Assembly: GCA_029288835.1 (NCBI GenBank)
Contig: JARIGN010000004.1
Coordinates: 22,313 to 86,312 of the forward strand
Length of the DNA stretch: 64,000 nt
Reading direction: 5' to 3'
Source of the DNA: Candidatus Kaiserbacteria bacterium
Lineage (GTDB): Bacteria > Patescibacteriota > Minisyncoccia > Phycocordibacterales > Phycocordibacteraceae
This document shows positions 2,753 to 57,335 of this stretch, one piece after another. Each line of letters starts with the position of its first letter. Position 1 is the stretch's first letter. Below the pieces are notes generated by a model. It did no database searches. It was not told the DNA's origin and saw nothing but the letters and a program-made list of their open reading frames with translations. Made by a program: the position numbers and the translations under genes.

Positions 2753-2779
2753 CGTGACAGCTCAGCTTATACTTTAGAT

Positions 2780-43576: not shown

Positions 43577-44077
43577 ATGACTATCAATACCGTATCCCGT
43601 CTCGGAAGCGTTCTCGCCGCATTGGTGCTTGTGTTTGCAGGGATTTCCCATGCAACGCCAGCCTTTGCGTACTATGGCGCTCTTGAGGGTACCCAGCCAC
43701 TCAGTGCCGTTTGTAACGGTCGCTATGACCCAACCTGCCTTATGAAGGAAACGGCATACGCTCAGCAGCTCAATGCTCCGTATACGAGTTGGCATAATTA
43801 CCAGTATCAAGCTCCAGCACTTCCTCATACCTACGGCGTGCCGTATGTGGCTCCTACCTACGTAGCTCCGACGTACTACAACTACACGAGCTACCCATAC
43901 AGCTATAGTTACAACTACCAGTATCAGTACGTAATGCCAGCAACTTCATACTATGCTGCACCCACCTACTACACGCCTACCGCATACAGCTATGACGACT
44001 ACAATAGCTACGACTCTTATGATAGCTATGACAATTACGAAAGCTGTGGTTCCTATTCCTACAATTGCGGCTACTAA
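43577..44077 (+). CDS. Secreted Tyr-rich low-complexity protein (166 aa, ~25% Tyr) inserted between dnaK and dnaJ
   Basis: Signal peptide (cleavage near AFA-YY). Repeats PTYVAPTYY, YSYSYNYQYQY and SYDSYDSYDNY. Confidence 0.55.
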   Translation: MTINTVSRLGSVLAALVLVFAGISHATPAFAYYGALEGTQPLSAVCNGRYDPTCLMKETAYAQQLNAPYTSWHNYQYQAPALPHTYGVPYVAPTYVAPTYYNYTSYPYSYSYNYQYQYVMPATSYYAAPTYYTPTAYSYDDYNSYDSYDSYDNYESCGSYSYNCGY

Positions 44078-45824: not shown

Positions 45825-45889
45825 TAGTTTCAAGATACCACCTAACGACCTAGGGTAATAGAACACAACATTTGTGCTATACTAGCAAT

Positions 45890-47785
45890 ATGCGTTCGAT
45901 AGCGGCTACAAAAACCGCGCGCCAGAAAAAAGAAAGGCGTGCGGGTTCCCATACTATTTTTACGGTCTACAGCAAGGAGCTGGGGAAGTTTCCGCTACTT
46001 TTTCTGGGCACCCTCTGTGGCACCATTTTTATTCAGACTGCTGACCTCATTTCGCCGCTTTACCTAAAGCGCTTTTTTAACACGCTCATTCTTTCGCACA
46101 CAAGCCCCACCGTCGTGCACGGACTTTTTATAACGCTCGCCATCATCGCATTTTTTGAAGTAGTGAATTGGGTTGGCTTCCGCGTGCAGGCATTTAGCAT
46201 AATGTACCTCGAGTCGAAAGCCATGAGCGACCTGTACGCAAATTCCTTTGAGTACCTCATGCAGCATTCCTACAACTTCTTCAGCTCGCAGTTTTCAGGA
46301 ACGCTCACGCGCCGCATCAGCAAATTTGCAAACGCATTTGAAACACTTCTCGACAGCATCATGCTGCAGTTCCTTCCGACGACTATTTTTGTGGCTGGAG
46401 CAATAATAATTTTGTTTATTAATAACCATACGCTTGGGTTGCTTCTTGGAGGATGGGCAATACTTTTCGTTGCGTTCCAAGTATATGTGGGAAAGCTACG
46501 CCAACCGCTCCGCGTTGAGCGTGCGGAAGAAGATAGCCGCATGACCGGAAACTTGGCGGATGCTATTTCCAACCAAAGCACTATCTGGCTTTTTTCTGCT
46601 AACGCCTTTGAATTTGCGCGCTTCCGAGAAGCAATCCGCAAGTGGAAAAAGGCCACCATGCGCGCATGGAACGCTGACGAATGGATTTGGGCATCTTTGG
46701 GACTTCTCATGGGCGGCATTTACGTGGGCATGCTCTATGCCGCAGTCTACTACTGGCAGCGCGGCCAGCTCACCATAGGAGATTTCGTGCTTATCCAAGC
46801 CTATCTTCTCACCACTTTCCAGCAGCTCGTGGGCATTAACCGAAACCTGCGTCGCTTCTATGACGGTCTCGCTGACGCAGCAGAAATGGTTCAGATATTT
46901 AATTTGCCGCATGAGATTCAGGATGATGCTGACGCAAAAGCGCTTGAAGTGACGAAAGCAGAGATTGAATTCAAGAATGTGGGATTTTATTTCAACCCGG
47001 AGCACACCATTTTCGAGCACTTTAATCTACACATCTCGGGTACTGAAAAAGTCGCGCTTGTCGGCCCTTCCGGAGCAGGAAAGTCTACCATTACCCGCCT
47101 TATCCTTCGCTTCTATGACGCGAAAAGTGGCGAGATTCTTATAGACAACCAAAATATTACGCAGGTAACCCAAGAAAGCCTTCGCGGTGCTATTTCGTTT
47201 GTGCCGCAGGAGCCAATCCTTTTCCATCGCTCGCTTATGGAAAATATTCGCTATGGTCGCCGTGACGCCACCGATGAGGAAGTTATTGAAGCTGCCAAAA
47301 AAGCGCATGCACACGAATTCATTAGTCATTTTCCTGATGGATACGAGACATTTGTGGGGGAGCGTGGCGTAAAGCTTTCTGGGGGTGAGCGCCAGCGCGT
47401 GGCTATTGCACGTGCCATCCTTAAGAATTCTCCTATTCTCGTACTAGACGAAGCCACCTCAAGCCTTGACTCTGAGTCGGAAGCACTCATCCAGGAAGCG
47501 CTCGATGTGCTTATGGAAGGGAAGACGGTCATCACCATTGCACACCGCCTTTCAACCATTATGAAAATGGACAGGATTGTGGTGGTAGACGGCGGAAAAA
47601 TTGTTGCAGAGGGAACCCACGATAAGCTTTTGGAAGATGAACAGGGCCTCTACCACAAGCTATGGAGCATCCAGGCAGGCGGCTTTTTACAAGATGAAAT
47701 AGAAGAGGGCGAAGAGATCCTTACGGAAGCTGGAACTTCAAAAACTGTGGATGAGGACCTTGAAACTCAGCTATATATCGTATAA
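45890..47785 (+). CDS. ABC transporter, fused permease/ATPase (MsbA/type-I exporter-like)
   Basis: Six-TM domain. GPSGAGKST Walker A, LSGGERQRVAIARA signature, ILVLDEATS Walker B. Confidence 0.9.
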   Translation: MRSIAATKTARQKKERRAGSHTIFTVYSKELGKFPLLFLGTLCGTIFIQTADLISPLYLKRFFNTLILSHTSPTVVHGLFITLAIIAFFEVVNWVGFRVQAFSIMYLESKAMSDLYANSFEYLMQHSYNFFSSQFSGTLTRRISKFANAFETLLDSIMLQFLPTTIFVAGAIIILFINNHTLGLLLGGWAILFVAFQVYVGKLRQPLRVERAEEDSRMTGNLADAISNQSTIWLFSANAFEFARFREAIRKWKKATMRAWNADEWIWASLGLLMGGIYVGMLYAAVYYWQRGQLTIGDFVLIQAYLLTTFQQLVGINRNLRRFYDGLADAAEMVQIFNLPHEIQDDADAKALEVTKAEIEFKNVGFYFNPEHTIFEHFNLHISGTEKVALVGPSGAGKSTITRLILRFYDAKSGEILIDNQNITQVTQESLRGAISFVPQEPILFHRSLMENIRYGRRDATDEEVIEAAKKAHAHEFISHFPDGYETFVGERGVKLSGGERQRVAIARAILKNSPILVLDEATSSLDSESEALIQEALDVLMEGKTVITIAHRLSTIMKMDRIVVVDGGKIVAEGTHDKLLEDEQGLYHKLWSIQAGGFLQDEIEEGEEILTEAGTSKTVDEDLETQLYIV

Positions 47786-47792
47786 TCAAAAA

Positions 47793-48179
47793 ATGCATTT
47801 TGGTGAACACATAACAATTGATGGATACGGAGGCGACCCTGAGCTGCTCGATAACGGCGAGTTGGTGAAAAGTTGTTTTCCAGAGCTTTGCACGCTGCTC
47901 GGCATGCATCCTCTTATTGAACCCCAGGTTATTTCCGCACCCGACAACCAGATAAAAGACCCAGGTGGCTGGAGCTGCTTTGTGATCATTGCGGAAAGCC
48001 ACATTGCAATGCACACCTTCCCAAAGCGTGGTTTTATCAGTGCCGATGTTTACACGTGCCAGAATGGCCTCGAGACGGAAAAAATAAAGCAGTACTTCAT
48101 CGAAAAGTTTAAACTCCAGGAAATTGAAACAAACCTGGTGATGCGGGGCACAAAGTATCCAGAGCATAATATAATTTAG
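47793..48179 (+). CDS. speH: S-adenosylmethionine decarboxylase proenzyme, small (SpeH-type, pyruvoyl)
   Basis: IIAESHIAMHTFPKRGF with ES-H self-cleavage motif. ~128 aa. Confidence 0.75.
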   Translation: MHFGEHITIDGYGGDPELLDNGELVKSCFPELCTLLGMHPLIEPQVISAPDNQIKDPGGWSCFVIIAESHIAMHTFPKRGFISADVYTCQNGLETEKIKQYFIEKFKLQEIETNLVMRGTKYPEHNII

Positions 48180-48198: not shown

Positions 48199-49278
48199 TT
48201 GTATACTAATATTGTGATTAAAATTACTGACTTACCTGAATACGCCGCGCACGAGGCTGTGCTCCGCATTGAAGATAAAGAAACGGGATTACGGGGATTT
48301 ATCGCGATACACAATACCAATCGTGGACCGGCGGTAGGGGGAACGCGCTTTTGGTACTACAAGAATGAAGAAGAAGCACTGAAGGATGCGCTCCGTCTTT
48401 CGCGGGCGATGACCTATAAATGCGCTGCAACGGATCTTCCTTACGGAGGAGGCAAGGCAGTACTCATGGCACCCAAAGACCAAGCAGCGAGCCATACATT
48501 TAAAAATGAAAAATACCTACAGTCCTATGCACGGAGGTTGGAACTTCTTGATGGGCATTTTTTTACTGGTGAGGATGTTGGCATGGATGAAAAAGATATC
48601 GGGGTTTTAGCCCGCAACTCCAGCAGCATTATAGGCAGACCTACCATTGGTGGCCTGCCTTCTCCCTATGCGGCAAGTAGCGTGTTTGAGTCTATGCGTG
48701 CAGCGCTAACGCATGCTTATGGCTCAGATTCTTTTGTAGGGCGCACCGTAGCTATAAAAGGGCTAGGAAATGTGGGTCTTGAACTGGCTCAGATGCTTAC
48801 CAAAGAGGGAGCAGAGATTATTGGCGCTGACGTGAACCCAGAAAAGGTTGCTGCGGCCCAGCGTTTACTTCTAAACTGCAAAATAGTACCCTCACACCTT
48901 ATCCATAAGCAAAAAGTAGATATTTATTCTCCTTGTGCATTAGGAGGGGACCTTACTGCTACCGTTATTGCTAGCCTGCAGTGTAGTATTGTGTGCGGTT
49001 CTGCAAATAACCAGCTTGCTACTCCAAAGGACGCCTCCCGTCTTTTTGCGCGCGGTATACTGTATGTACCCGACTATGTCGCGAACGCCGGTGGGCTCAT
49101 TACGGTAGTAGACGAGCTGCAATCAGGCGGATATGACAAAAAGCGGGTTGAGCGAAACATTATGCAAATCAGGGAAACCGTTCTCCACATCCTTTCTGAA
49201 TCAAAAAAGAAAAAAGTATCCGAAAGTATCATTGCTGATGCACTTGCGGAAAGACGCTTTCTTACGACTCACCAATAA
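48199..49278 (+). CDS. Glu/Leu/Phe/Val dehydrogenase family (leucine/phenylalanine dehydrogenase-like); TTG start, alternative GTG 48214
   Basis: GGTRFWYY...LSRAMTYKCAATDLPYGGGKAV catalytic Lys region. GLGNVG Rossmann. Confidence 0.8.
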   Translation: MYTNIVIKITDLPEYAAHEAVLRIEDKETGLRGFIAIHNTNRGPAVGGTRFWYYKNEEEALKDALRLSRAMTYKCAATDLPYGGGKAVLMAPKDQAASHTFKNEKYLQSYARRLELLDGHFFTGEDVGMDEKDIGVLARNSSSIIGRPTIGGLPSPYAASSVFESMRAALTHAYGSDSFVGRTVAIKGLGNVGLELAQMLTKEGAEIIGADVNPEKVAAAQRLLLNCKIVPSHLIHKQKVDIYSPCALGGDLTATVIASLQCSIVCGSANNQLATPKDASRLFARGILYVPDYVANAGGLITVVDELQSGGYDKKRVERNIMQIRETVLHILSESKKKKVSESIIADALAERRFLTTHQ

Positions 49279-49280
49279 CT

Positions 49281-50819
49281 ATGCCGAAGGCGAAGCATCC
49301 AGGAATACGGGCTCGAATTCCCGCGAACAAGGCGGTTGTACTCGCACGTTCTGCTTCAGCTAGTTATTGGGAACATGTACGCAAGAAAAATGCACTCGAC
49401 CTTTTTAAGAAAGCTGCCAAAGAAGTACCAGCCTATAAGAAATTTCTTGAAGAGCACGGCATACAAGCTTCAACCGTTAAGACGTGGGAGGATTTTACGA
49501 AGATACCCGCTACCAGCAAGGCGAACTATTTGCGCGTAAACCCACCCGAGTCAATTGTATGGAAGGGAAATCTTGCTCGGCCCTCTGTCTATTCGGCAAC
49601 TTCGGGATCTACTGGTACGCCTTTTTACTTTCAACGCTCTCAAAATTTAGAAGAGGAATATTCTGCACTCATTGAGCTTTTTTTCCTTTCGAACGGAACC
49701 GTGCCAAGTCCTGAATGCCCGACCCTCGTCATTATTGGCTTCGGGATGGGAGTGTGGATCGGCGGTATGTTAACATTCCGTGCCTATGAGATAGCCAGTC
49801 ACCGAGGCTATCCTGTTTCCATTCTTCCTGCGGGAGTAAATAAGAATGAAATATTGCACGCATTCAGAAACCTCGCGCCACACTATAAACAGACCATTCT
49901 TATCGGCTATCCTCCTTTTATTAAAGACATTTTGGACGAAGCTGCCCTGGAAGGCATTGATCTCAAGTCTTTACACTTGCGTCTCCAGTTTGCTGCCGAA
50001 TCATTTACGGAACAGTTTAGGGAATATGTGGGTACGAAAGCTGGAATACAGAATATCGTTCGTGACACGTTCAATGTGTATGGCACCTCCGATATTGGAG
50101 CCATGGCCTTTGAGACCCCGGTCTCCATCCTTGTGCGACGGCTTGCCTTGCAGAACCCCGAGCTCTATACCGCACTCTTTGGTTCATTACACAAGATGCC
50201 TACGGTGGCGCAATACAATCCTGCATACATGACCTTTGAGCAGTCAGAAGAAGGAGAAGTGCTTTTAACGGGGAACAGTGCCGTGCCGCTCATTCGGTAT
50301 GCGGTAGGGGACCATGGAGGAGTTCGTTCTTATGAAGAGGTTAACAGTCTCTGCAATTCCTTTGGCATTGACCTTGAGGAAGAATGCAAAAAGCACGAGG
50401 TTCCACTTTATAAGTTTCCTTTTGTCTATGTGTATGAGCGAGCAGACCTGGCCACCACCCTCTATGGCTTACAGATATTTCCACAGTACATAAAGGATGT
50501 GCTCCTCAGCGACTTTGCCCAGGAGAAACTCACGGGTAAATTCCAGCTTGCCACAAAATATGACGCAGAACAAAACCAGTTTTTAGAAATTAATGTTGAA
50601 TTGAAGAAAGGAGTTGACGCCGCTGATGCCGAATTCATTCAAGAGATTGAACACCATATTTACACAGCACTTTTGGAGAAAAGTTCGGAATTTCGAGAAC
50701 TCTCGACGTTTGTACACAATCGTAAACTTTTTGTCCTCGTATTTCACGAGGCAGGAAACGCAGAATTCTTTCCTCAAGGAATCAAGCAAAAATGGGTGCA
50801 GAAGACAGCCGTTAAATGA
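49281..50819 (+). CDS. Adenylate-forming enzyme, PaaK/coenzyme-F390-synthetase-like
   Basis: YSATSGSTGTPFYF matches the PaaK P-loop-like motif. NVYGTSDIG matches the YGxTE-like A5 motif. C-terminal GDHGG. Confidence 0.7.
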   Translation: MPKAKHPGIRARIPANKAVVLARSASASYWEHVRKKNALDLFKKAAKEVPAYKKFLEEHGIQASTVKTWEDFTKIPATSKANYLRVNPPESIVWKGNLARPSVYSATSGSTGTPFYFQRSQNLEEEYSALIELFFLSNGTVPSPECPTLVIIGFGMGVWIGGMLTFRAYEIASHRGYPVSILPAGVNKNEILHAFRNLAPHYKQTILIGYPPFIKDILDEAALEGIDLKSLHLRLQFAAESFTEQFREYVGTKAGIQNIVRDTFNVYGTSDIGAMAFETPVSILVRRLALQNPELYTALFGSLHKMPTVAQYNPAYMTFEQSEEGEVLLTGNSAVPLIRYAVGDHGGVRSYEEVNSLCNSFGIDLEEECKKHEVPLYKFPFVYVYERADLATTLYGLQIFPQYIKDVLLSDFAQEKLTGKFQLATKYDAEQNQFLEINVELKKGVDAADAEFIQEIEHHIYTALLEKSSEFRELSTFVHNRKLFVLVFHEAGNAEFFPQGIKQKWVQKTAVK

Positions 50820-50831
50820 TAGAATAGGGCT

Positions 50832-51971
50832 ATGAATACTTTCCCAAAACCAGTACTGAAAGAAGCGATTGATACACCTGAAAACCTTTTTTCTTCTTAT
50901 GAAATTAGTCGCTCACTAGACCTGTATGACGAGCTCCTAGAGGAGTTATTCTTGATTCGTAATCCGCAGTATAAATTTAACCCAAACTATACGACAGAAT
51001 TCCAGCAGTGGAAGGCTGCGTTGGAGACTGCGCAACCTGCGCTCGCGCACGGCATGTGGGCGTATTTCCCTTGGTCTAAAATAGCGGTACGGGTACTGCC
51101 TGATGCGGAACACCTTGAGCTTAGGACGGCACGAAATAAAAACCTCATTACCAAAGAGGAACAAGAAAAGTTTTATAACTCTCGCATTGCGGTTGCTGGC
51201 CTTTCCGTAGGAAGCCATGGCGCACTCACGCTCGCACTCATGGGTGGCGCTCGCACCCTTTTCCTTGCCGATCCCGACACTATTTCAGGGTCAAACCTAA
51301 ACCGCATCCGCTATGACTATACAACAATTGGCAGGAAGAAAGCGGAAGTAGCTGCTGAATATATCTACCAACTAAACCCCTATGCTGAGGTGCATCTTTT
51401 TTCAGAGGGAGTAAGTGCAGAAAATATTGATACATTTCTGGGCGGAGATGAAAAGGTGCAGCTTCTGGTGGAAGAGCTTGATAACCTTGAGATGAAGGTT
51501 CGGCTTCGCCTTGCGGCAAAAGAAAAAGGGATTCCAGTAATTATGGCCACCGATAATGGCGACGGTATTATTATGGACATAGAACGCTACGACCTTAACC
51601 CTAACACTGAGCTCTTTAATGGTGCCCTCGGTCACTTGACGATGGAAGAGTTTTCACAGTTTACCCCGAGCGACCTTCCCAAGCTTGCAACAAAGGTGGC
51701 GGGAGTAGAAGTAGTGGTGCCTCGCATGCTCTTGTCCCTTAAAGAAGTAGGAAAGACTTTGTATTCATGGCCACAGCTTGGTGACGCTGCAACTCTTTCA
51801 GGAGTAGCTATTGCGTATATTGCGCGCAAAATCATTCTTGGAGAACCAGTCCGCGATGGCAAGCACGAGATTAACCTTGATGCGATCTTTGATGCACACT
51901 ATGACTCTGCAGAAGCAGTTGCTGAACGGGAACAGGTTCGTTCAGCTTTTAAGCAGGCACTAGGACTATAG
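50832..51971 (+). CDS. E1-like (ThiF/MoeB/MccB family) adenylyltransferase with ~110-aa N-terminal extension
   Basis: RIAVAGLSVGSHGALTLALMGGARTLFLADPDTISGSNLNRIRY matches the E1 Rossmann and SNLNR motif. No CxxC pairs. Confidence 0.7.
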   Translation: MNTFPKPVLKEAIDTPENLFSSYEISRSLDLYDELLEELFLIRNPQYKFNPNYTTEFQQWKAALETAQPALAHGMWAYFPWSKIAVRVLPDAEHLELRTARNKNLITKEEQEKFYNSRIAVAGLSVGSHGALTLALMGGARTLFLADPDTISGSNLNRIRYDYTTIGRKKAEVAAEYIYQLNPYAEVHLFSEGVSAENIDTFLGGDEKVQLLVEELDNLEMKVRLRLAAKEKGIPVIMATDNGDGIIMDIERYDLNPNTELFNGALGHLTMEEFSQFTPSDLPKLATKVAGVEVVVPRMLLSLKEVGKTLYSWPQLGDAATLSGVAIAYIARKIILGEPVRDGKHEINLDAIFDAHYDSAEAVAEREQVRSAFKQALGL

Positions 51972-51977
51972 GCACCT

Positions 51978-53057
51978 ATGCAGGAAAAGATACGAGCAAT
52001 TGTCGAGAAGGCAGTATGGGCGCCTTCGGGAGACAATTCACAACCATGGGAATTTTCGTTCGTGGATGAATCAACGCTCCAGGTGCATCTCATTCCCCAC
52101 AAGGATAATAAAATACTTAATTATAAGTTGAGTGGCACGTATGTTGCTCATGGCGCATTGATTGAAAACATAGTACTTCTGGCGGGGAAAGAAGGCCTTA
52201 CTGCTTCCGTCATGCTTTTACCCGTTTCTGATGATCCATTGATTACCGCGCAGATTACTTTTAAGGAAAGTGCTTCATCCTCTAACCTTCCAGATCCGCT
52301 TGCTGAGGCAATCCCTGCACGACATACCAACAGGAAGCAGTATGAGCCAAAGCAGCTTTCTGAAGAGGCTCGAGCAAGTATCACTAAGGCTGCTGCAGCT
52401 GCTTCAGATGAAATCACTTTTCATGTACTAGAAGACAAGAAACGTATAAAAAAAGCAGCCTATGCAGAATCCCTGATACAAAAGATTGCTCTTGAGACTC
52501 CCACTCTGCATTCAATTTTCTTTTCTAATATCTTATGGAAGGAAAAGGATAATACCGGAGAGAAACAGGGTCTCTCTCTAAAAAGTATGGAACTTCCTCC
52601 ACCAGTAGAAAAACTTTTTCCGTTGCTTTCCCACTGGCCAGTCACGAAAGCATTTAACAAAATTGGGTTTTCTGCTATGGCCTCAAAAACAAATGGCGAC
52701 CTTTTTGCCTCATCACCCGCCATAGGGCTTGTTTGCGTACGGAAAGAGGAGCCTGTGCAGTACCTTGAAGCGGGCAGGGTATTTGAGCGTGTGTGGCTAG
52801 CGGCGACCGCACAAGGCGTTTCCTTTCAACCCATTAGTGGCTTACTTTTTGTAGCACGAAGGCTTGCTGCAGGGGAGACTGACGCATTAGACTCAAAGCA
52901 TTTTGATGAAATTTCACTAGCGGCGAATGACATTGCCCAAGCTTTCTCTTTGACTAATGGAGAGATACCGCTGATGATGTGTAGGATGGGATACAGCGCC
53001 GCAGCTACGAGCCGATCAAAGAGAGCTGCTCCCGTTTTCCGCACTAGCCATGCTTAG
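51978..53057 (+). CDS. Nitroreductase-superfamily protein, apparently two tandem half-domains (SagB/McbC-type dehydrogenase-like)
   Basis: WAPSGDNSQPWEF matches the nitroreductase FMN-site motif. RHTNRKQY Arg motif. 359 aa. Confidence 0.65.
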   Translation: MQEKIRAIVEKAVWAPSGDNSQPWEFSFVDESTLQVHLIPHKDNKILNYKLSGTYVAHGALIENIVLLAGKEGLTASVMLLPVSDDPLITAQITFKESASSSNLPDPLAEAIPARHTNRKQYEPKQLSEEARASITKAAAAASDEITFHVLEDKKRIKKAAYAESLIQKIALETPTLHSIFFSNILWKEKDNTGEKQGLSLKSMELPPPVEKLFPLLSHWPVTKAFNKIGFSAMASKTNGDLFASSPAIGLVCVRKEEPVQYLEAGRVFERVWLAATAQGVSFQPISGLLFVARRLAAGETDALDSKHFDEISLAANDIAQAFSLTNGEIPLMMCRMGYSAAATSRSKRAAPVFRTSHA

Positions 53058-54687
53058 CACCTTACTTTATTTTCATAATATTGACCTTTTCGTTGTTGGG
53101 ATTACGGTCGCAGGTATCGCCGTCCTAGGCTTTACTGCCTATTTTAGTAACACAAAAAATGCTACGAATGTCTCTTTTTGGCTCTTCACCCTTTCTGCTG
53201 CACTTTGGAGCATTGTAAACTACCTTTTCTACCATATTGCAAACCCCTACCTTGCTTTTTGGATTATTCGCACTGTTATTTTCCTAGCAACGTGGTTTGT
53301 ATTTTTCCTTTTTCAATTTCTTCTCGTGTTTCCTGCAGAAAAGTATATTTTTCCAAAAAAATACCTTTATGGACTTCTACCTCTCACATGTTTCATATCA
53401 TTAATGACGCTTACACCGCTAGTCTTTAATAGTATCGGATCACTCAGCAATACGGGTGCCATCGAAACAATAAATAATGGACCTGGAATATTCTTTTTTG
53501 CCCTTTTTGTCACGTTCTTAATTTTTGGAGGATTGTGGATTTTCATTAAGAAAATGCGCTTAGCGCCTAAAAGTGAAAAGGGACAGTACCGATCAATTTT
53601 GTGGGGGCTTTTTGTTACGTTTTTGTTAATTATAAGCTTCAATCTCGTCTTACCCGCGTTTTACAACAATGCTTCCTTTATTTCCCTTGGTGCACTCTTC
53701 ATACTTCCAACAGTAGTTGCCGCTGGGTATGAAATTGCTAAATATCATTTATTCAGGGTAAAAGTCTTTGCGACGTCTCTCCTTATCTTTTTGCTTTCCA
53801 TTTCTATTCTCCTCGAAGTGCTTTCTTCAGCGACTCTTTTCCAGATCATATTCAGAAGCATGGAGTTTGTCCTGGTCCTTGCCATAGGTATTTTGCTCAT
53901 CCGAAGCGTGCTTCGTGAAGTAGAGCAGCGTGAGCATATACAGGAGCTTGCTAACCAGCTTGAGTTCGCGAACAACCAGCAAGTGGCGCTCATCCATTTC
54001 ATTACGCACCAAGTTAAAGGCTTTCTTACCAAATCCCGTAATGTGTTCTCGATGGCACTCGAAGGGGAGTTCGGTCCCATTCCTGATACCTTTAAGCCGA
54101 TACTCCAGATGGGGCTTGAATCGGACACGAAAGGCGTGAATACCGTCCAGGAAATACTGAATGCATCCAATATTAAAAGCGGCAAAATTACCTACTCAAT
54201 GCAGCTGTTTGATCTCGCCGCACTGCTTTCAGAAATTATTACAACCCTTAAGCCGAATGCCGATGCAAAAAAGCTTTCACTCAAGGTGACGCTTTCTGAA
54301 AATCCTTGCGAGATCCAGGGAGATCGCATGCAGCTTGAAAATGCCTTTAAGAATATTATTGATAATGCTATTAAGTATACCCCTGCGGGTGAGGTTGCCA
54401 TTTCCTTAACCAAGGAAGGGTCACTCGTACGCATTATTGAGCAAGATACAGGCGTCGGTATCACGCCAGAAGATATGGGCAAGCTCTTCACCGAGGGTGG
54501 CCATGGCAAGGAATCTGTAAAGGTAAATGTCGACAGTACCGGCTTTGGCCTCTATATTGTGAAAAATATTATCACTGCCCATAACGGAGAGATTTGGGCA
54601 GAATCCGAAGGGGCGGGGAAGGGATCCAAATTCACTATTGAGCTCCCTATCATGCAGCCCAATACTCCTACAGCAGTAAGCGCCTAG
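53050..54687 (+). CDS. Sensor histidine kinase with ~8 N-terminal TM helices
   Basis: Multi-TM N-terminal half. H-box QVALIHFITHQVKG. N box NIIDNAIKYT, G boxes DTGVGI and GFGLYIVK. Very AT-rich. Confidence 0.8.
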   Translation: MLSTLLYFHNIDLFVVGITVAGIAVLGFTAYFSNTKNATNVSFWLFTLSAALWSIVNYLFYHIANPYLAFWIIRTVIFLATWFVFFLFQFLLVFPAEKYIFPKKYLYGLLPLTCFISLMTLTPLVFNSIGSLSNTGAIETINNGPGIFFFALFVTFLIFGGLWIFIKKMRLAPKSEKGQYRSILWGLFVTFLLIISFNLVLPAFYNNASFISLGALFILPTVVAAGYEIAKYHLFRVKVFATSLLIFLLSISILLEVLSSATLFQIIFRSMEFVLVLAIGILLIRSVLREVEQREHIQELANQLEFANNQQVALIHFITHQVKGFLTKSRNVFSMALEGEFGPIPDTFKPILQMGLESDTKGVNTVQEILNASNIKSGKITYSMQLFDLAALLSEIITTLKPNADAKKLSLKVTLSENPCEIQGDRMQLENAFKNIIDNAIKYTPAGEVAISLTKEGSLVRIIEQDTGVGITPEDMGKLFTEGGHGKESVKVNVDSTGFGLYIVKNIITAHNGEIWAESEGAGKGSKFTIELPIMQPNTPTAVSA

Positions 54688-54705: not shown

Positions 54706-55965
54706 ATGGAAACAGCCGGAAACCTCCAAAAAGACTTGCTTGCACGCGGCCTTATCGAGCACCACTCCGCCGAGCTAGAGACTATCTTTGCGCAAAAGCG
54801 CACGGTGTACCTCGGGGTGGATCCCTCTGCAGACTCGATGCAGGCAGGGAATTTGGTCGTGATTCTTTTAATGAAGCGTCTTGCAGACGCAGGGCATAAG
54901 GTGATCTTCCTCGTGGGTGGAGGCACCGGCATGATCGGAGACCCGCGCGAAAGCGGCGAGCGCACCCTTGCGGATGCGAAGGTAATCGAGAAAAACAAGA
55001 AAGCCCTTAAGGCACAGTTCCAGCAGATCCTCGGCACGCGCATTCAGCTTGTGGACAACGCAGACTGGCTTTTGAAGGCGAAGCTTGTCGATTTTTTGCG
55101 TGACATTGGAAAGCACTTTACGGTGAACGAGCTCGTGAAGCGCGATATCATCCGCCGCAGGCTTGAAACCCCTGACGAAAGCATTTCATACACCGAGTTT
55201 GCCTACTCACTTTTGCAAGGCTTTGATTTTCTTGTGCTGAACCAAAAGTATGGCTGCAATATGCAAGTGGGTGCGAGTGACCAATGGACAAACATTCTTT
55301 CAGGCGTCGAGCTTATCCGCCGCAAGCTTGGCAAGGAAGCGTTTGCGCTCACCTGCCCGCTCGTAACGGACGCAAATGGCAAGAAGTTTGGCAAGTCAGA
55401 AGGGAATGCAGTGTGGCTGAGCGCACAGAAGACTTCGCCCTATGCCTTCTATCAGTTTTGGCTTAACCAGCCAGATGAGAAAGTGGAGCAGTACCTGAAG
55501 TTTTACACCTTTATGAGTGTGCGCGAGATAGAAGCGCTCGTGGAGCTGCATCGCCGTAACCCAGGCCGACGTGAAGCACAAAAGATGCTTGCGCTGCACG
55601 TAACGGAAATCGTGCATGGAAAGCAGGCTGCGGAAAACGCGCAAGCAGTTTCGGAAGTGCTCTTTGGTGGAAAGCCGCTTGCGGAACTCACCACAAAAGA
55701 GCTTATGCTTTTGGATCAAAACTCCACAACCCATGGAATTAAAAGCTCTGAAATAGAAGCCGGGTATCTTGTCTCAGACGCCCTCGTTGCAAGCGGCCTT
55801 GCCAACTCCAAATCTGATGCCCGAAGGCTTATAGAAGGGAAGGGAGTGTATCTAAATGACGAAAGGGTGGAGTCAGTTTCAGATCAGCTAACTCCATCAT
55901 CCTTTATTCAGAACCATGCAAAGCTAGCGAAAGGGTCACAAATAGTAATTCTTTTCATGAAATAA
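54706..55965 (+). CDS. tyrS: Tyrosine--tRNA ligase
   Basis: YLGVDPSADSMQAGN HIGH-like region. KFGKS (KMSKS). C-terminal S4 domain. Confidence 0.95.
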   Translation: METAGNLQKDLLARGLIEHHSAELETIFAQKRTVYLGVDPSADSMQAGNLVVILLMKRLADAGHKVIFLVGGGTGMIGDPRESGERTLADAKVIEKNKKALKAQFQQILGTRIQLVDNADWLLKAKLVDFLRDIGKHFTVNELVKRDIIRRRLETPDESISYTEFAYSLLQGFDFLVLNQKYGCNMQVGASDQWTNILSGVELIRRKLGKEAFALTCPLVTDANGKKFGKSEGNAVWLSAQKTSPYAFYQFWLNQPDEKVEQYLKFYTFMSVREIEALVELHRRNPGRREAQKMLALHVTEIVHGKQAAENAQAVSEVLFGGKPLAELTTKELMLLDQNSTTHGIKSSEIEAGYLVSDALVASGLANSKSDARRLIEGKGVYLNDERVESVSDQLTPSSFIQNHAKLAKGSQIVILFMK

Positions 55966-56006: not shown

Positions 56007-56651
56007 ATGGCGTCAATACCTGATACACAACATTCGTATGCTATACAAATGTATGAGTCAGGTAACAGTGCTCAAGAAGTGGCAAATTACTATACCGTAA
56101 GCGTGGGAGCTGTCTTTTATATATTGAAGAAATATAAAATACCAAGGAGAAGTACGAGGGATTCGAATGCTATCAAGTATGATCGGGCAGCACCTTCGTT
56201 TATTCTCAAAGAAAACCTTACTCAGGATCAAAAAGAGTTAAAAACTATTGGAGTGATGCTGTATTGGGCTGAAGGGTATAAGATTGGAAAAAATACTATA
56301 GATTTCGCTAACTCAGACCCGTCAATGGTCGTTTTGTTCTGTAAATTTTTACGTCAGATATGTGGAATTACTGAATCTAAAATTCGTTGTTCTTTGTACT
56401 GTTATGACACCCAAGATTTAGCAGTACTTCATTCTTATTGGAGTTCGCTTCTTAGTGTTCCTCTAGCGCAGTTTACAAAACCCTTTATTAAAAAGGCTGA
56501 TGAAGACAGCAAAAGAGGGCCAAGAATGGTGCATGGCCTTGTGCATGTTCGATATTGTGATAAAAAGTTATTACGGCAGGTACTTAATTGGATTGCTGAA
56601 TATCAAATCGAAAGCGTCGGTGGCGGAGTGGTCAATCGCATTGGACTGTAA
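56007..56651 (+). CDS. HTH + LAGLIDADG-like (homing-endonuclease-like) protein; 3' end overlaps tRNA-Tyr by 38 nt
   Basis: N-terminal HTH (YAIQMYESGNSAQEVANYYTVSVGAVFYILKKYKIP). LYWAEGYKIGKNTIDFANSDPSMVVLFCKFL resembles the LAGLIDADG-type motif block. AT-rich gene. Confidence 0.45.
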   Translation: MASIPDTQHSYAIQMYESGNSAQEVANYYTVSVGAVFYILKKYKIPRRSTRDSNAIKYDRAAPSFILKENLTQDQKELKTIGVMLYWAEGYKIGKNTIDFANSDPSMVVLFCKFLRQICGITESKIRCSLYCYDTQDLAVLHSYWSSLLSVPLAQFTKPFIKKADEDSKRGPRMVHGLVHVRYCDKKLLRQVLNWIAEYQIESVGGGVVNRIGL

Positions 56652-56700
56652 ATCCAACGACTTAATGTCTACGAAGGTTCGAATCCTTCCCGGCGCACCA
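56614..56700 (+). tRNA. tRNA-Tyr (anticodon GTA), long variable arm, CCA encoded
   Basis: Hand fold: acceptor GCGTCGG/CCGGCGC with two G-U pairs; D-arm GCG-GAGTGGTCAAT-CGC; anticodon stem TTGGA/TCCAA with loop CTGTAAA; variable arm CGACTTAATGTCTAC; T-arm GAAGGTTCGAATCCTTC; terminal ACCA. Confidence 0.75.
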
Positions 56701-56732: not shown

Positions 56733-57335
56733 TTATGGATGCCTCGTTGAATAGTATATTTCGGGAACACCATAGGTTCTCATCAGCCACCCGAAAGTAA
56801 AGTGCTGTGATACCTTCGTTGACTTGTTTACACTGATCACTACAGTGTGTTCCGTTAGCACGCGTGGCTTCTTAGGATCCGAAAACTCGCGGATTAGATC
56901 GCGCCCTTCAGTCCTGCAGTAGCCACAGCACTTAAGGGTCTGGTTATACTCATGGTCAGGATCACTTTTCAACCACTCCGGCGCGTAATCGTCGATCTGC
57001 TTATCTGCATAGACGACGATCATGAGCAGCTCATACCCGTACTTTCTACACTCAGTAAAGTGATAGTTTTCACCACAGCGCCGAGGCCCCTCTTCTCCCG
57101 GAAAGGGCTTGAGGTTAGCCTGGTACAGGATTTTATACGCCCACTCGCAGGTATGAATTTCCTTGTAACGAACGAGCGCAGCAACACCAACGTGAAAGTG
57201 ACGATGACTTACGCCATATTCCCAAGCGTGCTCAGCGTATTCAAGTAAAATGAGCTTGATCTGCTCAAACGATTTAATTTTGATGAACACCCCTTCCGGG
57301 GTCTCAACCATTCGCTCCTTTCCAGGAGGACGCAT
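56733..57335 (-). CDS. Cys/His-rich hypothetical protein (200 aa), possible zinc-binding nuclease-like
   Basis: AAGGAG RBS before the ATG. Motifs HTCEW, CGENYHFTEC and CCGYC. No family recognised. Confidence 0.45.
   Translation of the reverse strand: MRPPGKERMVETPEGVFIKIKSFEQIKLILLEYAEHAWEYGVSHRHFHVGVAALVRYKEIHTCEWAYKILYQANLKPFPGEEGPRRCGENYHFTECRKYGYELLMIVVYADKQIDDYAPEWLKSDPDHEYNQTLKCCGYCRTEGRDLIREFSDPKKPRVLTEHTVVISVNKSTKVSQHFTFGWLMRTYGVPEIYYSTRHP

What the first reader, a model, noticed from the sequence alone, without database searches (positions are those of the whole stretch)
50832..53057. E1-like enzyme with N-terminal extension paired with a double nitroreductase-fold protein, with no YcaO, sulfur-carrier or precursor gene nearby
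The E1-like ORF has the ThiF/MoeB Rossmann and SNLNR motifs. It lacks the CxxC zinc pairs typical of MoeB/ThiF. It carries about 110 extra N-terminal residues, comparable in size and position to the peptide-clamp (RRE-like) domain of MccB and of TOMM cyclodehydratase partners.

The next gene starts 7 nt later and has a nitroreductase FMN-site motif (APSGDNSQPW) in a 359-aa two-lobed protein. This resembles SagB/McbC-type azoline dehydrogenases.

In known systems this pair works with a YcaO or a MoaD/ThiS-like carrier plus a small substrate peptide. I could not find any of these on either strand within this window. Either the partners are encoded elsewhere, the substrate is the product of the upstream PaaK-like enzyme, or this is a different chemistry.
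Basis: inference. Interest (0 to 1): 0.7.

Follow-up and report, generated by a model that had tools for sequence, protein, structure and literature searches.

The report
Split oxazolone-synthetase-like operon in Patescibacteria
The E1-like enzyme and the double nitroreductase are the two halves of a recently characterised "oxazolone synthetase" (a ring-closing enzyme plus a flavin desaturase that act on small acylated amino acids, not on peptides or sulfur carriers), here in an apparently undescribed version conserved across ultra-small Patescibacteria, with a PaaK-like ligase in the acyltransferase's place and a membrane sensor kinase in the same gene row.

Summary
ORFs at 50832-51971 (379 aa, ThiF/E1-like, about 100 extra N-terminal residues, no cysteine) and 51978-53057 (359 aa, two-lobed nitroreductase fold) lie 6 nt apart. 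No YcaO, ThiS/MoaD or precursor gene was detected in 64 kb.

The TOMM/MccB/sulfur-carrier reading is not supported. The two proteins match the two halves of NCBIfam "Rv1355c family protein" (E 1.8e-85 and 2.3e-53). Rv1355c is TrzS, a ThiF-cyclase/flavin-oxidase fusion that converts N-acyl-tryptophan into an oxazolone. TyzB/TyzC and OxzB are its relatives. These enzymes need no carrier protein or YcaO.

What appears new is the context. In 81 Patescibacteria loci the pair, split or fused, sits in a conserved row:
- a Leu/Phe/Trp-type amino-acid dehydrogenase or a HisC-like aminotransferase,
- a PaaK-like adenylating enzyme,
- the E1,
- the flavin oxidase,
- a 7TM histidine kinase.

No OxzA-type N-acyltransferase was found. 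Natural fusions (PaaK-like+E1; dehydrogenase+PaaK-like+E1) tie the steps together.

Best reading: a probably CoA-independent route to an oxazolone-type metabolite. It is a new variant of a known kind. The substrate and the role of the kinase are unknown.

The parts
50832..51971 (+). ThiF/E1-like ATP-dependent cyclase (379 aa), equivalent to the N-terminal half of Rv1355c/TrzS. Residues 1-100 form a family-specific alpha/beta domain and residues ~101-379 form the adenylation core. It has no cysteine.
   Evidence: NCBIfam NF005901 'Rv1355c family protein' E 1.8e-85; residues 29-367 match profile positions 39-353 of 722. Pfam ThiF covers 102-240. AF2 model pLDDT 92.4. D217 (in LDNLE) aligns with the catalytic Asp217 of TrzS from M. 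smegmatis and is conserved at the >=97% threshold across 78 homologs. More than 1200 close homologs, all named ones from Patescibacteria.
50832..51131 (+). N-terminal domain of the E1 (about 100 aa: strand-helix-strand-helix-helix-hairpin-helix). It is conserved across the family but has no recognisable fold relative.
51978..53057 (+). Flavin-dependent oxidase of the nitroreductase superfamily (359 aa, two lobes in one chain), equivalent to the C-terminal half of Rv1355c/TrzS. Presumed C-alpha/C-beta desaturase.
   Evidence: NF005901 E 2.3e-53; residues 2-350 match profile positions 374-712. Acg family E 1.1e-40. Family profile vs PDB: Acg 2YMV E 4.1e-19. Residues conserved in >=93% of 74 homologs include APSGxNxQPW (15-24), R115, N118, R119, R336 and G338. 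Q284 corresponds to TrzS Q651; A171 stands where TrzS has R540.
49281..50819 (+). PaaK-like (ANL superfamily) adenylate-forming enzyme, 512 aa. It is the proposed supplier of the N-acylated amino-acid substrate and occupies the place that the OxzA/TyzA/TrzA acyltransferase gene has in known systems.
   Evidence: Distant match to phenylacetate-CoA ligases: PDB 2Y4O E 6.6e-10; NCBIfam PaaK 54.6 bits against a cut-off of 646. Invariant ANL motifs T107-S-G-S-T-G-x-P114, Y267-G, D271, G343-D344, R387-x-D389 and K502. Present in 67 of 68 related loci with upstream DNA and directly upstream of the E1 gene in 56. Natural fusions: PaaK-like+E1 (P0191) and aaDH+PaaK-like+E1 (P0161, an intact ORF in two NCBI assemblies).
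48199..49278 (+). Leu/Phe/Trp-type amino-acid dehydrogenase (359 aa). It is a frequent first gene of the module and is replaced in other genomes by a HisC-like aminotransferase.
   Evidence: Pfam ELFV_dehydrog_N and ELFV_dehydrog. NCBIfam ScyB-like E 4.5e-88, below the cut-off. PDB: LeuDH E 8e-78, TrpDH 2.4e-69, PheDH about 4e-54, GluDH only 1e-19. Directly upstream of the PaaK-like gene in 19 of 52 loci; an aminotransferase (Pfam Aminotran_1_2 E 7e-44, hisC-like) holds that place in 14 of 52. Fused to PaaK-like+E1 in P0161.
53050..54687 (+). Seven-transmembrane sensor histidine kinase (545 aa). Its start overlaps the end of the oxidase gene by 8 nt. It is the most persistent non-enzymatic partner of the module.
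   Evidence: Pfam HisKA_7TM (residues 20-237) and HATPase_c (424-534). Conserved H320, N435, N439, D466-x-G468-x-G470, G498 and G500. Found on the same strand within 4.5 kb downstream of the E1 gene in 57 of 61 loci, and kept even where the gene order is shuffled (L077, L084, L085, L089).
45872..47785 (+). MsbA/HlyB-type ABC exporter (permease + ATPase, 637 aa). Possible accessory exporter; membership in the module is uncertain.
   Evidence: Pfam ABC_membrane and ABC_tran. An ortholog (49-53% identity, 92% coverage) lies directly after the kinase gene in L011, L015, L029, L055, L056 and L059. In the window it lies upstream instead.

Best explanation
The two ORFs are a split oxazolone-synthetase-type enzyme pair.

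Proposed chemistry of the pair, inferred from the characterised homologs TrzS, TyzB/TyzC and OxzB:
- The E1-like protein adenylates the alpha-carboxylate of a free N-acylated amino acid with ATP. The amide oxygen then closes a 5(4H)-oxazolone ring.
- The flavin (FMN) oxidase desaturates the C-alpha/C-beta bond to give a conjugated 4-ylidene-oxazolone.
- No carrier protein, YcaO or precursor peptide is involved.

Shown here:
- Full-length homology of both ORFs to the Rv1355c family.
- Conservation of the ATP-site aspartate and of nitroreductase-superfamily motifs (APSGxNxQPW, RxxNR) that I take to be flavin-binding.
- Interchange of split and fused forms in the same operon slot.
- A Patescibacteria-wide gene row: [amino-acid dehydrogenase or aminotransferase] - PaaK-like adenylating enzyme - E1 - oxidase - 7TM histidine kinase.

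Inferred about the supply of substrate:
- These loci show no OxzA/TyzA/TrzA N-acyltransferase, and the PaaK-like gene is present in nearly all of them and in some relatives fused to the E1. The PaaK-like enzyme therefore most likely supplies the substrate.
- The simplest route is direct, CoA-independent ligation of an adenylated carboxylic acid to an amino acid.
- That acid may be the 2-oxo acid made from a hydrophobic or aromatic amino acid by the dehydrogenase or aminotransferase.

The co-operonic kinase probably senses the product or regulates its synthesis. This last step is the most speculative.

My confidence by step: about 0.75 that the pair carries out cyclisation plus desaturation on a small acyl-amino-acid-like substrate; about 0.5 that the PaaK-like enzyme makes that substrate; about 0.2 that the kinase senses the product.
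For: 1. Homology. NCBIfam NF005901 (Rv1355c family) hits the E1 at E 1.8e-85 (profile 39-353) and the nitroreductase at E 2.3e-53 (profile 374-712). The concatenated pair aligns over its full length with PGAP-annotated Rv1355c family proteins of Mycolicibacterium and Rhodococcus, sharing GLSVG, LADxD...SNLNR, EExD, ER(F/Y)D, WPQ, APSGxNxQPW and RxTNR.

2. Function of the family. Rv1355c = TrzS performs ATP-dependent cyclisation and then O2-dependent desaturation of N-acyl-Trp (PMC12856293). TyzB/TyzC are a split pair with the same chemistry (PMC10404671). OxzB is the founding member (bioRxiv 10.1101/2020.06.11.147165; review PMC12596934).

3. Catalytic residues. TrzS D217 (context VEEC[D]SLDA, from the published primers) aligns with E1 D217, conserved at the >=97% threshold in 78 sequences. 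TrzS Q651 aligns with Q284, which is Q or H in 68 of 74 sequences.

4. Split and fused forms are interchangeable. Fused 731-738 aa forms (51-52% identical) sit between the PaaK-like and kinase genes in L048, L061 and L075.

5. Context statistics over 81 loci. PaaK-like is present in 67 of 68 loci, NTR is adjacent or fused in 73 of 79, and the kinase is present in 57 of 61. The gene set survives rearrangements (L020, L077, L084-L086, L089).

6. Rosetta-stone fusions. P0191 is PaaK-like+E1. P0161 is aaDH+PaaK-like+E1, an intact ORF in GCA_018812905.1 and GCA_018822385.1.

7. Non-orthologous displacement at the first position: a LeuDH/TrpDH-type dehydrogenase in some genomes and a HisC-like aminotransferase in others.

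8. The PaaK-like family keeps all ANL adenylation motifs.
Against: - No biochemical data exist for any Patescibacteria member, and the substrate is unknown.
- Each half scores below the NCBIfam full-length cut-off (287.6 + 181.5 = 469 bits against 476).
- TrzS R540, which is needed for normal flavin content and desaturation, is Ala171 here and is never Arg in 74 homologs. The oxidase pocket therefore differs.
- The oxidase evolves much faster than the E1 (median identity to the window protein 34% against 54%).
- Known family members use O2 as the electron acceptor, whereas many Patescibacteria are thought to live anaerobically (my own knowledge).
- PaaK homologs characterised so far make CoA thioesters, not amides. 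An unlinked acyltransferase elsewhere in the genome cannot be excluded, because only 64 kb were searched.
- In a few loci (L005/L023, L030) neither the oxidase nor the kinase follows the E1 gene.
Confidence: 0.65

Rival explanations
1. Same enzyme families but a different small-molecule chemistry. For example, the PaaK-like enzyme is an ordinary acyl-CoA ligase. The E1 could activate a carboxylate for a different ring closure or for intermolecular amide or ester formation. The flavoprotein could work as a reductase or as a dehydrogenase on another scaffold. The module could also be catabolic or a detoxification route.
For: R540 of TrzS is not conserved (A171). The oxidase is only 25-33% identical to fused and actinobacterial relatives. 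No N-acyltransferase is present. Accessory genes vary between genomes: an alpha/beta hydrolase in L089 and an unknown 313-aa protein between oxidase and kinase in 9 loci. [quoted passage not shown]
Against: The homology to the Rv1355c family covers the full length of both proteins. The E1-specific motifs beyond the Rossmann fold (ER[FY]D, WPQ, and the N-domain motif GxW.Y.PW) are shared with actinobacterial members. The obligatory pairing or fusion of E1 with the oxidase matches all three characterised systems.
Confidence: 0.2
2. Modification of a macromolecule: a TcdA-like dehydratase acting on a tRNA nucleoside (ct6A-type oxazolone or hydantoin) or on another housekeeping substrate, with the oxidase as a partner.
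For: TcdA chains are the best PDB sequence matches of the E1 (E 2e-8 to 2e-7), and TcdA also forms an oxazolone (PMC12596934). The genes sit among aminoacyl-tRNA synthetase, tRNA and ribosomal genes. Sequence conservation is very high for a 'secondary' pathway. JGI names some homologs 'tRNA threonylcarbamoyladenosine dehydratase'.
Against: The NCBIfam TcdA model scores 39 bits against a cut-off of 304, while the Rv1355c family scores 288 bits. TcdA has no flavoprotein or ANL partner. The amino-acid dehydrogenase/aminotransferase and the PaaK-like fusions point to small-molecule carboxylates.
Confidence: 0.07
3. One reading: a RiPP/TOMM-like system in which the E1's N-terminal domain clamps a precursor peptide and the nitroreductase is an azoline dehydrogenase, with YcaO and the precursor encoded elsewhere.
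For: MccB and PaaA are detectable structural relatives of the E1 core. The N-terminal extension is similar in size and position to theirs.
Confidence: 0.03
4. An ordinary sulfur-transfer E1 (MoeB/ThiF/MoeZ-like) whose carrier protein lies outside the window.
For: Generic ThiF-family motifs are present, and many homologs are annotated 'ThiF family adenylyltransferase' or 'molybdopterin/thiamine biosynthesis adenylyltransferase'. A rhodanese-domain gene lies at 39911-40825.
Against: The protein has no cysteine at all, and no Cys is conserved in the family. The ThiF and MoeB equivalog models score far below their cut-offs. No ThiS/MoaD or genuine GG-ending ORF was found. The rhodanese gene is of the UPF0176 type and lies 10 kb away; I take that type to be the tRNA hydroxylase TrhO, from memory. 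None of the 81 loci shows a conserved carrier gene.
Confidence: 0.02

Closest known systems
TrzS (Rv1355c, formerly 'MoeY') of Mycobacterium tuberculosis / M. smegmatis, working with the acyltransferase TrzA (N-acyl tryptazolone pathway; PMC12856293)
   Same: It has a ThiF-like cyclase plus a nitroreductase-superfamily flavin oxidase in the same order. It gives the best NCBIfam match for both ORFs. The ATP-site Asp217 and Gln651 equivalents are shared, as are the ER(F/Y)D, WPQ and N-domain motifs.
   Different: Here the enzyme is split into two genes. The R540 equivalent is Ala. The N-terminal domain is about 20 residues longer. There is no TrzA-type acyl-CoA:amino-acid N-acyltransferase; a PaaK-like adenylating enzyme, with an amino-acid dehydrogenase or aminotransferase, takes its place. 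A 7TM histidine kinase is co-operonic. The host is Patescibacteria, not Actinomycetota.
TyzB (Rv2338c, ThiF-like) + TyzC (Rv2337c, flavin-dependent oxidase) + TyzA (Rv2336) of M. tuberculosis (N-acyl tyrazolone pathway; PMC10404671)
   Same: The architecture is split: separate, adjacent genes encode the cyclase and the single-chain, lid-bearing nitroreductase-fold oxidase.
   Different: TyzB is 318 aa, so it has a shorter N-terminus. Its N-acyltransferase TyzA is adjacent. By sequence the present pair is closer to the Rv1355c family model than to any other NCBIfam model. No direct comparison with TyzB/TyzC sequences could be made here.
OxzB + OxzA of Pseudoalteromonas rubra, the founding oxazolone synthetase (bioRxiv 10.1101/2020.06.11.147165; review PMC12596934)
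   Same: It uses the ThiF-nitroreductase domain pair on a free N-acyl aromatic amino acid, and no carrier or precursor peptide is needed.
   Different: OxzB is a fusion found in Proteobacteria, and most oxzB genes are accompanied by the N-acyltransferase oxzA. That partner is absent here.
Acg (MSMEG/Rv2032) family FMN-binding oxidoreductases, structure 2YMV
   Same: Acg is the closest solved structure to the second ORF (profile E 4.1e-19 over residues 8-290), with the same single-chain double nitroreductase fold.
   Different: Acg proteins stand alone, have no E1 partner, and have no assigned reaction.
MccB / PaaA (RiPP E1-like enzymes with an N-terminal RRE 'peptide clamp')
   Same: They share the ThiF adenylation core (Foldseek E about 1e-10 to 1e-11) and have an N-terminal extension of similar length.
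   Different: The extension here has a different, unassigned fold. The systems also differ in lacking a peptide substrate gene, and the partner enzymes are different.
PaaK phenylacetate-CoA ligases (for the upstream gene)
   Same: The ANL fold and the adenylation motifs are shared.
   Different: The score is only 54.6 bits against an equivalog cut-off of 646. The protein is about 70 residues longer, and no Pfam family reaches its threshold. The proposed direct amide formation is untested.

Membership tests
Oxazolone synthetases (OxzB / TyzB+TyzC / TrzS = NCBIfam 'Rv1355c family') | A ThiF-like domain and a nitroreductase-superfamily flavin oxidase, fused or encoded by adjacent genes, in that order | tested here: met
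   The genes are 6 nt apart. They are adjacent or fused in 73 of 79 related loci. Fused 731-738 aa homologs at 51-52% identity occupy the same operon slot.
Oxazolone synthetases (OxzB / TyzB+TyzC / TrzS = NCBIfam 'Rv1355c family') | Sequence match to the curated family model NF005901 over its whole length and above its cut-off (476 bits) | tested here: inconclusive
   The E1 covers profile positions 39-353 (287.6 bits, E 1.8e-85) and the oxidase covers 374-712 (181.5 bits, E 2.3e-53). The sum of 469 bits is just under the cut-off, which was set for the fused protein.
Oxazolone synthetases (OxzB / TyzB+TyzC / TrzS = NCBIfam 'Rv1355c family') | ATP-site aspartate (TrzS M. smegmatis D217, essential for cyclisation) | tested here: met
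   The primer-derived context VEEC[D]SLDA aligns with E1 EEL[D217]NLE. The residue is conserved at the >=97% threshold across 78 sequences.
Oxazolone synthetases (OxzB / TyzB+TyzC / TrzS = NCBIfam 'Rv1355c family') | Oxidase residues near the flavin that were tested in TrzS: Q651 and R540 | tested here: inconclusive
   The Q651 equivalent is Q284 (Q in 42 and H in 26 of 74 sequences). The R540 equivalent is A171 (Ala in 42 of 74, never Arg). The general flavin motifs APSGxNxQPW, R115 and R119 are conserved in at least 93% of sequences.
Oxazolone synthetases (OxzB / TyzB+TyzC / TrzS = NCBIfam 'Rv1355c family') | A neighbouring N-acyl amino acid synthase (OxzA/TyzA/TrzA, GNAT/AHL-synthase-like) that supplies the substrate | tested here: not met
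   No acyltransferase family appeared among 38 window ORFs scanned. In related loci the upstream slot holds a PaaK-like gene in 67 of 68 cases. The rest of the genome could not be searched.
Oxazolone synthetases (OxzB / TyzB+TyzC / TrzS = NCBIfam 'Rv1355c family') | Product is an N-acyl 4-ylidene-oxazol-5-one, made with ATP and O2 | not testable with these tools
   This needs reconstitution and LC-MS.
RiPP E1-like enzymes (MccB, PaaA, TOMM 'ocin-ThiF' partners) | N-terminal RRE / peptide-clamp (winged-helix) domain | tested here: not met
RiPP E1-like enzymes (MccB, PaaA, TOMM 'ocin-ThiF' partners) | A precursor peptide gene and (for TOMM) a YcaO cyclodehydratase in the cluster | tested here: not met
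   Neither was found in the window, and neither appears among the annotated gene clusters that recur across the 81 loci.
SagB/McbC-type azoline dehydrogenases | Membership of the SagB subgroup of the nitroreductase superfamily | tested here: not met
   The NCBIfam hits are only Rv1355c, PRK14851, the Acg family and PRK14852. The PDB profile search returns Acg and generic nitroreductases but no McbC/SagB chain at E <= 10.
MoeB/ThiF/MoeZ sulfur-carrier-activating E1 enzymes | Zinc-binding CxxC pairs and/or a catalytic Cys, and a ThiS/MoaD-type partner ending in GG | tested here: not met
   The protein has zero cysteines. The ThiF and MoeB models score 40-68 bits against cut-offs of 152-449. No carrier ORF was found.
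TcdA (tRNA ct6A dehydratase) | Match to the TcdA equivalog model | tested here: not met
   NF011696 scores 39.2 bits against a cut-off of 304.
PaaK phenylacetate-CoA ligase (upstream gene 49281-50819) | Equivalog-level match; ANL adenylation motifs | tested here: inconclusive
   TIGR02155 scores 54.6 bits against a cut-off of 646.3, so the protein is not a PaaK ortholog. The ANL motifs are invariant in the family, so it is an adenylate-forming enzyme. The acceptor (CoA or an amine) cannot be determined here.

The most novel reading that the evidence does not exclude
Patescibacteria carry a lineage-wide, CoA-independent pathway that builds an electrophilic oxazolone (azlactone) entirely from amino acids. 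The proposed steps are: amino acid to 2-oxo acid by a dehydrogenase or aminotransferase; adenylation and direct N-acylation of a second amino acid by a PaaK-like amide ligase; ring closure by the ThiF-like cyclase; and flavin-dependent desaturation. The product would act as a diffusible signal that is sensed by the co-operonic 7TM histidine kinase and exported by the associated ABC transporter. That would make it an autoinducer-like or host-interaction signalling system in ultra-small episymbiotic bacteria.
Probability: 0.15. Interest if true: 0.85.

Novelty: new variant of a known kind. Interest (0 to 1): 0.6.

Why it matters
Oxazolone synthetases were discovered in 2021 and linked to Mycobacterium tuberculosis lipids in 2023-2025. 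Their physiological role is still open, and the described systems all start from an acyl-CoA-dependent N-acyltransferase.

Patescibacteria have tiny genomes, are generally thought to lack fatty-acid and most cofactor biosynthesis (my own knowledge), and are hardly known for small-molecule pathways. A four-to-six-gene module retained across several candidate lineages named in the records (Kaiser-, Wolfe-, Lipton-, Lloyd-, Magasanik-, Doudna- and Roizmanbacteria) therefore probably serves something important. The E1 is 45-70% identical among these homologs.

If the inference holds, three things follow:
- It gives a new entry route into oxazolone biosynthesis, with an ANL ligase in place of a GNAT-type acyltransferase.
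- It offers a tractable set of soluble enzymes for testing.
- The invariant link to a 7TM sensor kinase provides a concrete handle on the long-standing question of what oxazolones are for, and on how these episymbionts sense or signal.

It also corrects the widespread database annotations of these genes ('ThiF/MoeB adenylyltransferase', 'tRNA threonylcarbamoyladenosine dehydratase', 'phenylacetate-CoA ligase').

Tried and rejected

2. Sulfur-carrier E1. Rejected on zero cysteines, sub-threshold ThiF/MoeB scores and no GG-ending carrier ORF.

3. SagB/McbC-type dehydrogenase. Rejected by NCBIfam and by the PDB profile search.

4. AdoMetDC-like gene (47751-48179) as part of the pathway. It is not conserved next to the module in any of the 86 other loci held at that point; only L021 has a distant copy, on the opposite strand and 6 kb away. 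I treat it as a local insertion.

5. Response regulator in the window. tblastn with CheY found none. Stand-alone receiver genes occur in 15 related loci and lie directly upstream of the PaaK-like gene in 4 of the 52 loci counted, so the link is only partial.

6. Promoter and terminator scan of 43.4-58.6 kb. Counts were close to the shuffled expectation and no clear operon boundaries emerged.

7. AlphaFold-database fold search. The library was unavailable, so the structural match to the AFDB models of TrzS, TyzB and OxzB could not be checked.

8. Exact look-up of the window's own E1 protein. It is an NCBI contig of 95.5 kb.

9. Literature. In the held library no listed paper combined 'oxazolone' with a Patescibacteria/CPR term (top 10 of 642 papers matching any two of the four terms), and none holds ThiF, nitroreductase and phenylacetate-CoA ligase together. 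The three oxazolone papers do not mention these phyla or a ligase or kinase partner in their main text.

Full report
**1. What is in the sequence**

The finding's coordinates hold two tightly spaced + strand ORFs.
- 50832-51971 (379 aa) has a Pfam ThiF domain only at residues 102-240. It carries GLSVGSH from residue 123, SNLNR from 154 and LDNLE from 216, and it has no cysteine.
- 51978-53057 (359 aa) starts with the nitroreductase signature APSGDNSQPW. It matches Pfam Nitroreductase in two stretches.

They belong to an uninterrupted row of + strand genes:

| Coordinates | Gene |
|---|---|
| 45872-47785 | ABC exporter |
| 47751-48179 | AdoMetDC-like |
| 48199-49278 | Leu/Phe/Trp-type amino-acid dehydrogenase |
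| 49281-50819 | PaaK-like enzyme |
| 50832-51971 | E1-like |
| 51978-53057 | nitroreductase fold |
| 53050-54687 | 7TM histidine kinase (overlaps the previous gene by 8 nt) |
| 54706-55965 | TyrRS |

The rest of the window is housekeeping: UvrABC, Ddl, ATP synthase, DnaK/DnaJ, aminoacyl-tRNA synthetases, and ORFs at 34.8-38.6 kb that I take to be ribosomal proteins by synteny with L003. No YcaO, ThiS/MoaD or acyltransferase family was found. The only two small ORFs ending in GG are antisense shadows inside real genes.

**2. What the pair is**

NCBIfam places both proteins on one model, NF005901 'Rv1355c family protein' (722 positions). The E1 covers positions 39-353 (E 1.8e-85) and the nitroreductase covers 374-712 (E 2.3e-53). 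The second protein also matches the Acg family of FMN oxidoreductases.

[quoted passage not shown] It performs ATP-dependent cyclisation and then O2-dependent desaturation of N-acyl-tryptophan to an N-acyl tryptazolone (PMC12856293). Related systems:
- TyzB + TyzC, a split pair that makes tyrazolones (PMC10404671).
- OxzB of Pseudoalteromonas rubra, the founding oxazolone synthetase (bioRxiv 10.1101/2020.06.11.147165; review PMC12596934).

All of these act on free N-acyl amino acids supplied by a neighbouring N-acyltransferase (OxzA/TyzA/TrzA). None needs a carrier protein, a YcaO or a precursor peptide. This removes the puzzle that motivated the finding.

**3. Direct comparison with family members**

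tblastn against plasmids recovered PGAP-annotated 'Rv1355c family protein' genes in Mycolicibacterium and Rhodococcus. The concatenated window pair aligns with them end to end. Shared features go well beyond the Rossmann fold:
- E1 half: GxW.Y.PW and LRxxRN+N.IT..EQ in the N-terminal domain, then GLSVG, LADxD..SNLNR, EExD, ER(F/Y)D and WPQ.
- Oxidase half: APSGxNxQPW, RxTNR and a C-terminal R.G.

The mutagenesis primers in the supplement of PMC12856293 give the local context of the three residues tested in M. smegmatis TrzS.

| TrzS residue | Context | Equivalent here | Conservation |
|---|---|---|---|
| D217 | VEEC[D]SLDA | E1 D217 | >=97% of 78 homologs |
| Q651 | GVSV[Q]PVSP | oxidase Q284 | Q in 42, H in 26 of 74 |
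| R540 | TDRI[R]YLTP | oxidase A171 | never Arg |

The cyclase active site is therefore conserved. The oxidase keeps the general flavin motifs but has a different pocket.

A family profile of the oxidase finds Acg (2YMV) at E 4e-19 and no McbC/SagB chain. This is the same nearest structure that the TrzS authors report.

**4. The N-terminal extension**

The extension is real and structured. In a full-length AF2 model (mean pLDDT 92.4) residues 8-98 form strand-helix-strand-helix-helix-hairpin-helix at pLDDT 94-98.

It is a property of the whole family:
- NCBIfam and the 1.84-billion-representative search align relatives, split and fused alike, from about residue 20-30 onward.
- The actinobacterial proteins share its hairpin motif, although they lack about 20 residues.

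It is not an RRE or peptide clamp:
- A profile of the domain finds nothing relevant in PDB sequences.
- Foldseek superposes only the core (about 260-280 columns) on MccB and PaaA. Target-normalised TM-scores are 0.46-0.59, against 0.72-0.81 for ThiF and MoeB.

Its role is unknown. Substrate binding or docking of the partner enzymes are possibilities.

**5. Distribution and context, the part that appears new**

The E1 has more than 1200 close homologs (45-70% identity). Every source name given is a Patescibacteria lineage.

A scan of one genome per species returned 103 encoding stretches, of which 80 loci were kept. Nearly all are titled as Patescibacteria lineages or left unclassified; a few MAGs carry other phylum labels, which I take to be mis-binned. 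Named lineages include Kaiser-, Wolfe-, Lipton-, Lloyd-, Magasanik- and Doudnabacteria.

Clustering of all ORFs from these loci, plus tblastn with the window proteins, gave the following counts for 81 loci including the window:
- PaaK-like gene present in 67 of 68 loci with enough upstream DNA, and directly upstream in 56.
- Oxidase directly downstream of, or fused to, the E1 in 73 of 79.
- 7TM kinase downstream on the same strand in 57 of 61.
- Gene directly before the PaaK-like gene (52 loci): the Leu/Trp-type dehydrogenase in 19, a HisC-like class I/II aminotransferase in 14 (Pfam E 7e-44), a stand-alone receiver domain in 4, and something else in 15.

Further observations on the module:
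- The gene set persists when the order is shuffled: E1-oxidase-PaaK in L077, L084 and L086; oxidase-PaaK-E1-kinase in L085.
- Fused E1-oxidase proteins of 731-738 aa occupy the same slot in L048, L061 and L075.
- Two fusions link the upstream steps physically. P0191 (863 aa) is PaaK-like+E1. P0161 (1242 aa) is dehydrogenase+PaaK-like+E1.
- P0161 is an intact ORF in two NCBI assemblies. There it is flanked by the oxidase on one side and by an alpha/beta hydrolase and the 7TM kinase on the other.
- The ABC exporter that lies upstream in the window follows the kinase in six other loci.
- The AdoMetDC-like gene is not conserved with the module.

**6. Mechanism proposed**

Shown: homology, conserved catalytic residues, conserved co-location and gene fusions.

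Inferred from the characterised homologs: the E1 adenylates the alpha-carboxylate of an N-acylated amino acid and the amide oxygen closes the oxazolone ring. The flavoprotein then introduces the C-alpha/C-beta double bond.

Inferred from context: the PaaK-like enzyme stands in for the missing N-acyltransferase.
- It keeps all ANL adenylation motifs: TSGSTGxP, YG..D, GD, RxD and a C-terminal Lys502.
- It is far from true PaaK (54.6 bits against a cut-off of 646).
- Direct amide formation by ANL enzymes has precedents that I recall from memory (for example coronafacate ligase and McbA). It would suit organisms that are thought to lack fatty-acid and CoA metabolism.

The same slot is filled either by an amino-acid dehydrogenase of the hydrophobic/aromatic branch (LeuDH 8e-78, TrpDH 2e-69, PheDH about 4e-54) or by a HisC-type aminotransferase. 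This indicates that the first step interconverts an amino acid and its 2-oxo acid. The 2-oxo acid may be the acyl donor, or the enzyme may make the amino-acid acceptor. This cannot be decided here.

The kinase has intact H, N and G boxes. It may sense the product or control the operon. That is a hypothesis only.

**7. Weak points**

- No member of this clade has been studied, and the substrate is unknown.
- R540 is absent and the oxidase is divergent.
- The O2 dependence of known members sits uneasily with the supposed anaerobic lifestyle of many Patescibacteria.
- An unlinked acyltransferase cannot be excluded from 64 kb of sequence.
- A few loci lack the oxidase and the kinase next to the E1 (L005/L023, L030).
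- The AlphaFold-database comparison could not be run.

**8. Verdict**

The pair is a split member, or a very close relative, of the known oxazolone-synthetase family.

The Patescibacteria-wide operon has a PaaK-like ligase, an amino-acid dehydrogenase or aminotransferase, and a 7TM kinase, and it lacks an OxzA-type acyltransferase. I did not find it described in the searched literature. I rate it a new variant of a known kind, of moderate to good interest.

Noticed in passing
window 47751-48179 (+): A small AdoMetDC-type, presumably pyruvoyl-dependent decarboxylase (142 aa; Pfam AdoMet_dc E 3.5e-25; NCBIfam 73.5 bits, just under the 75.65 cut-off) is wedged between the ABC exporter (35-nt overlap) and the amino-acid dehydrogenase. 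It is not found next to the module in any other locus, so it is probably a local insertion. Whether it decarboxylates a pathway intermediate in this genome is open.
   Followed up: partly
L003/L004/L008, about 8205-8351 in L003 coordinates: An 80-aa ORF matches only about 14% of the amino-acid dehydrogenase (48% identity) at exactly the place where the full gene sits in other genomes. It looks like a decayed remnant, which would suggest the dehydrogenase is ancestral to the module and dispensable in some lineages.
   Followed up: partly
L001/L002/L018 (between the E1 and oxidase genes, e.g. L001 11112-12923): A GmrSD-type (DUF262/DUF1524) restriction-like gene is inserted between the E1 and oxidase genes, splitting the otherwise adjacent pair.
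   Followed up: no
L016 10190-11146 and eight other loci (L025, L026, L034, L042, L049, L052, L055, L059), between the oxidase and kinase genes: A conserved gene of about 313 aa with no Pfam or NCBIfam family is inserted between the oxidase and the kinase. A GGG-containing motif hints at a methyltransferase-like fold, but nothing was confirmed. It is a possible tailoring enzyme.
   Followed up: partly
L089 9732-10607 (GCA_018812905.1) and L090: In the genomes with the triple fusion, an alpha/beta-fold hydrolase sits between the fusion gene and the kinase. It could open the oxazolone ring, but this is speculation.
   Followed up: no
window 43577-44077 (+): A 166-aa ORF has an apparent signal-peptide-like N-terminus and an extremely Tyr/Ser/Pro/Asn-rich low-complexity body (…YYNYTSYPYSYSYNYQYQY…). 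It has no Pfam family.
   Followed up: no
window 54706-55965, 56007-56651 and 56614-56700: TyrRS is followed by an unannotated 214-aa ORF whose 3' end overlaps a tRNA-Tyr(GTA) gene (ARAGORN). The synthetase and its cognate tRNA are therefore near neighbours. On the opposite strand, 56733-57335 encodes a 200-aa protein with several cysteines and no family.
   Followed up: no
window 11642-12754 (+): A second, soluble-looking histidine kinase (HisKA + HATPase_c, 370 aa) lies between uvrB and uvrA. No response regulator was detected anywhere in the window with a CheY tblastn probe.
   Followed up: no
window 170-5419 (+): Two very large ORFs (860 and 879 aa) show at most a weak TraG-D_C hit. They may form a coupling-protein or secretion-related pair.
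   Followed up: no
L017, L021, L022, L039, L051, L067: One to three tandem stand-alone receiver-domain genes (about 130 aa, Pfam Response_reg E 7e-22 for the example L014:1798-2187) lie upstream of the PaaK-like gene on the same strand in the gene-order listing. The biosynthetic genes are then bracketed by receiver and kinase genes. In L049, L071 and L076 a receiver gene is divergently oriented upstream of the dehydrogenase.
   Followed up: partly
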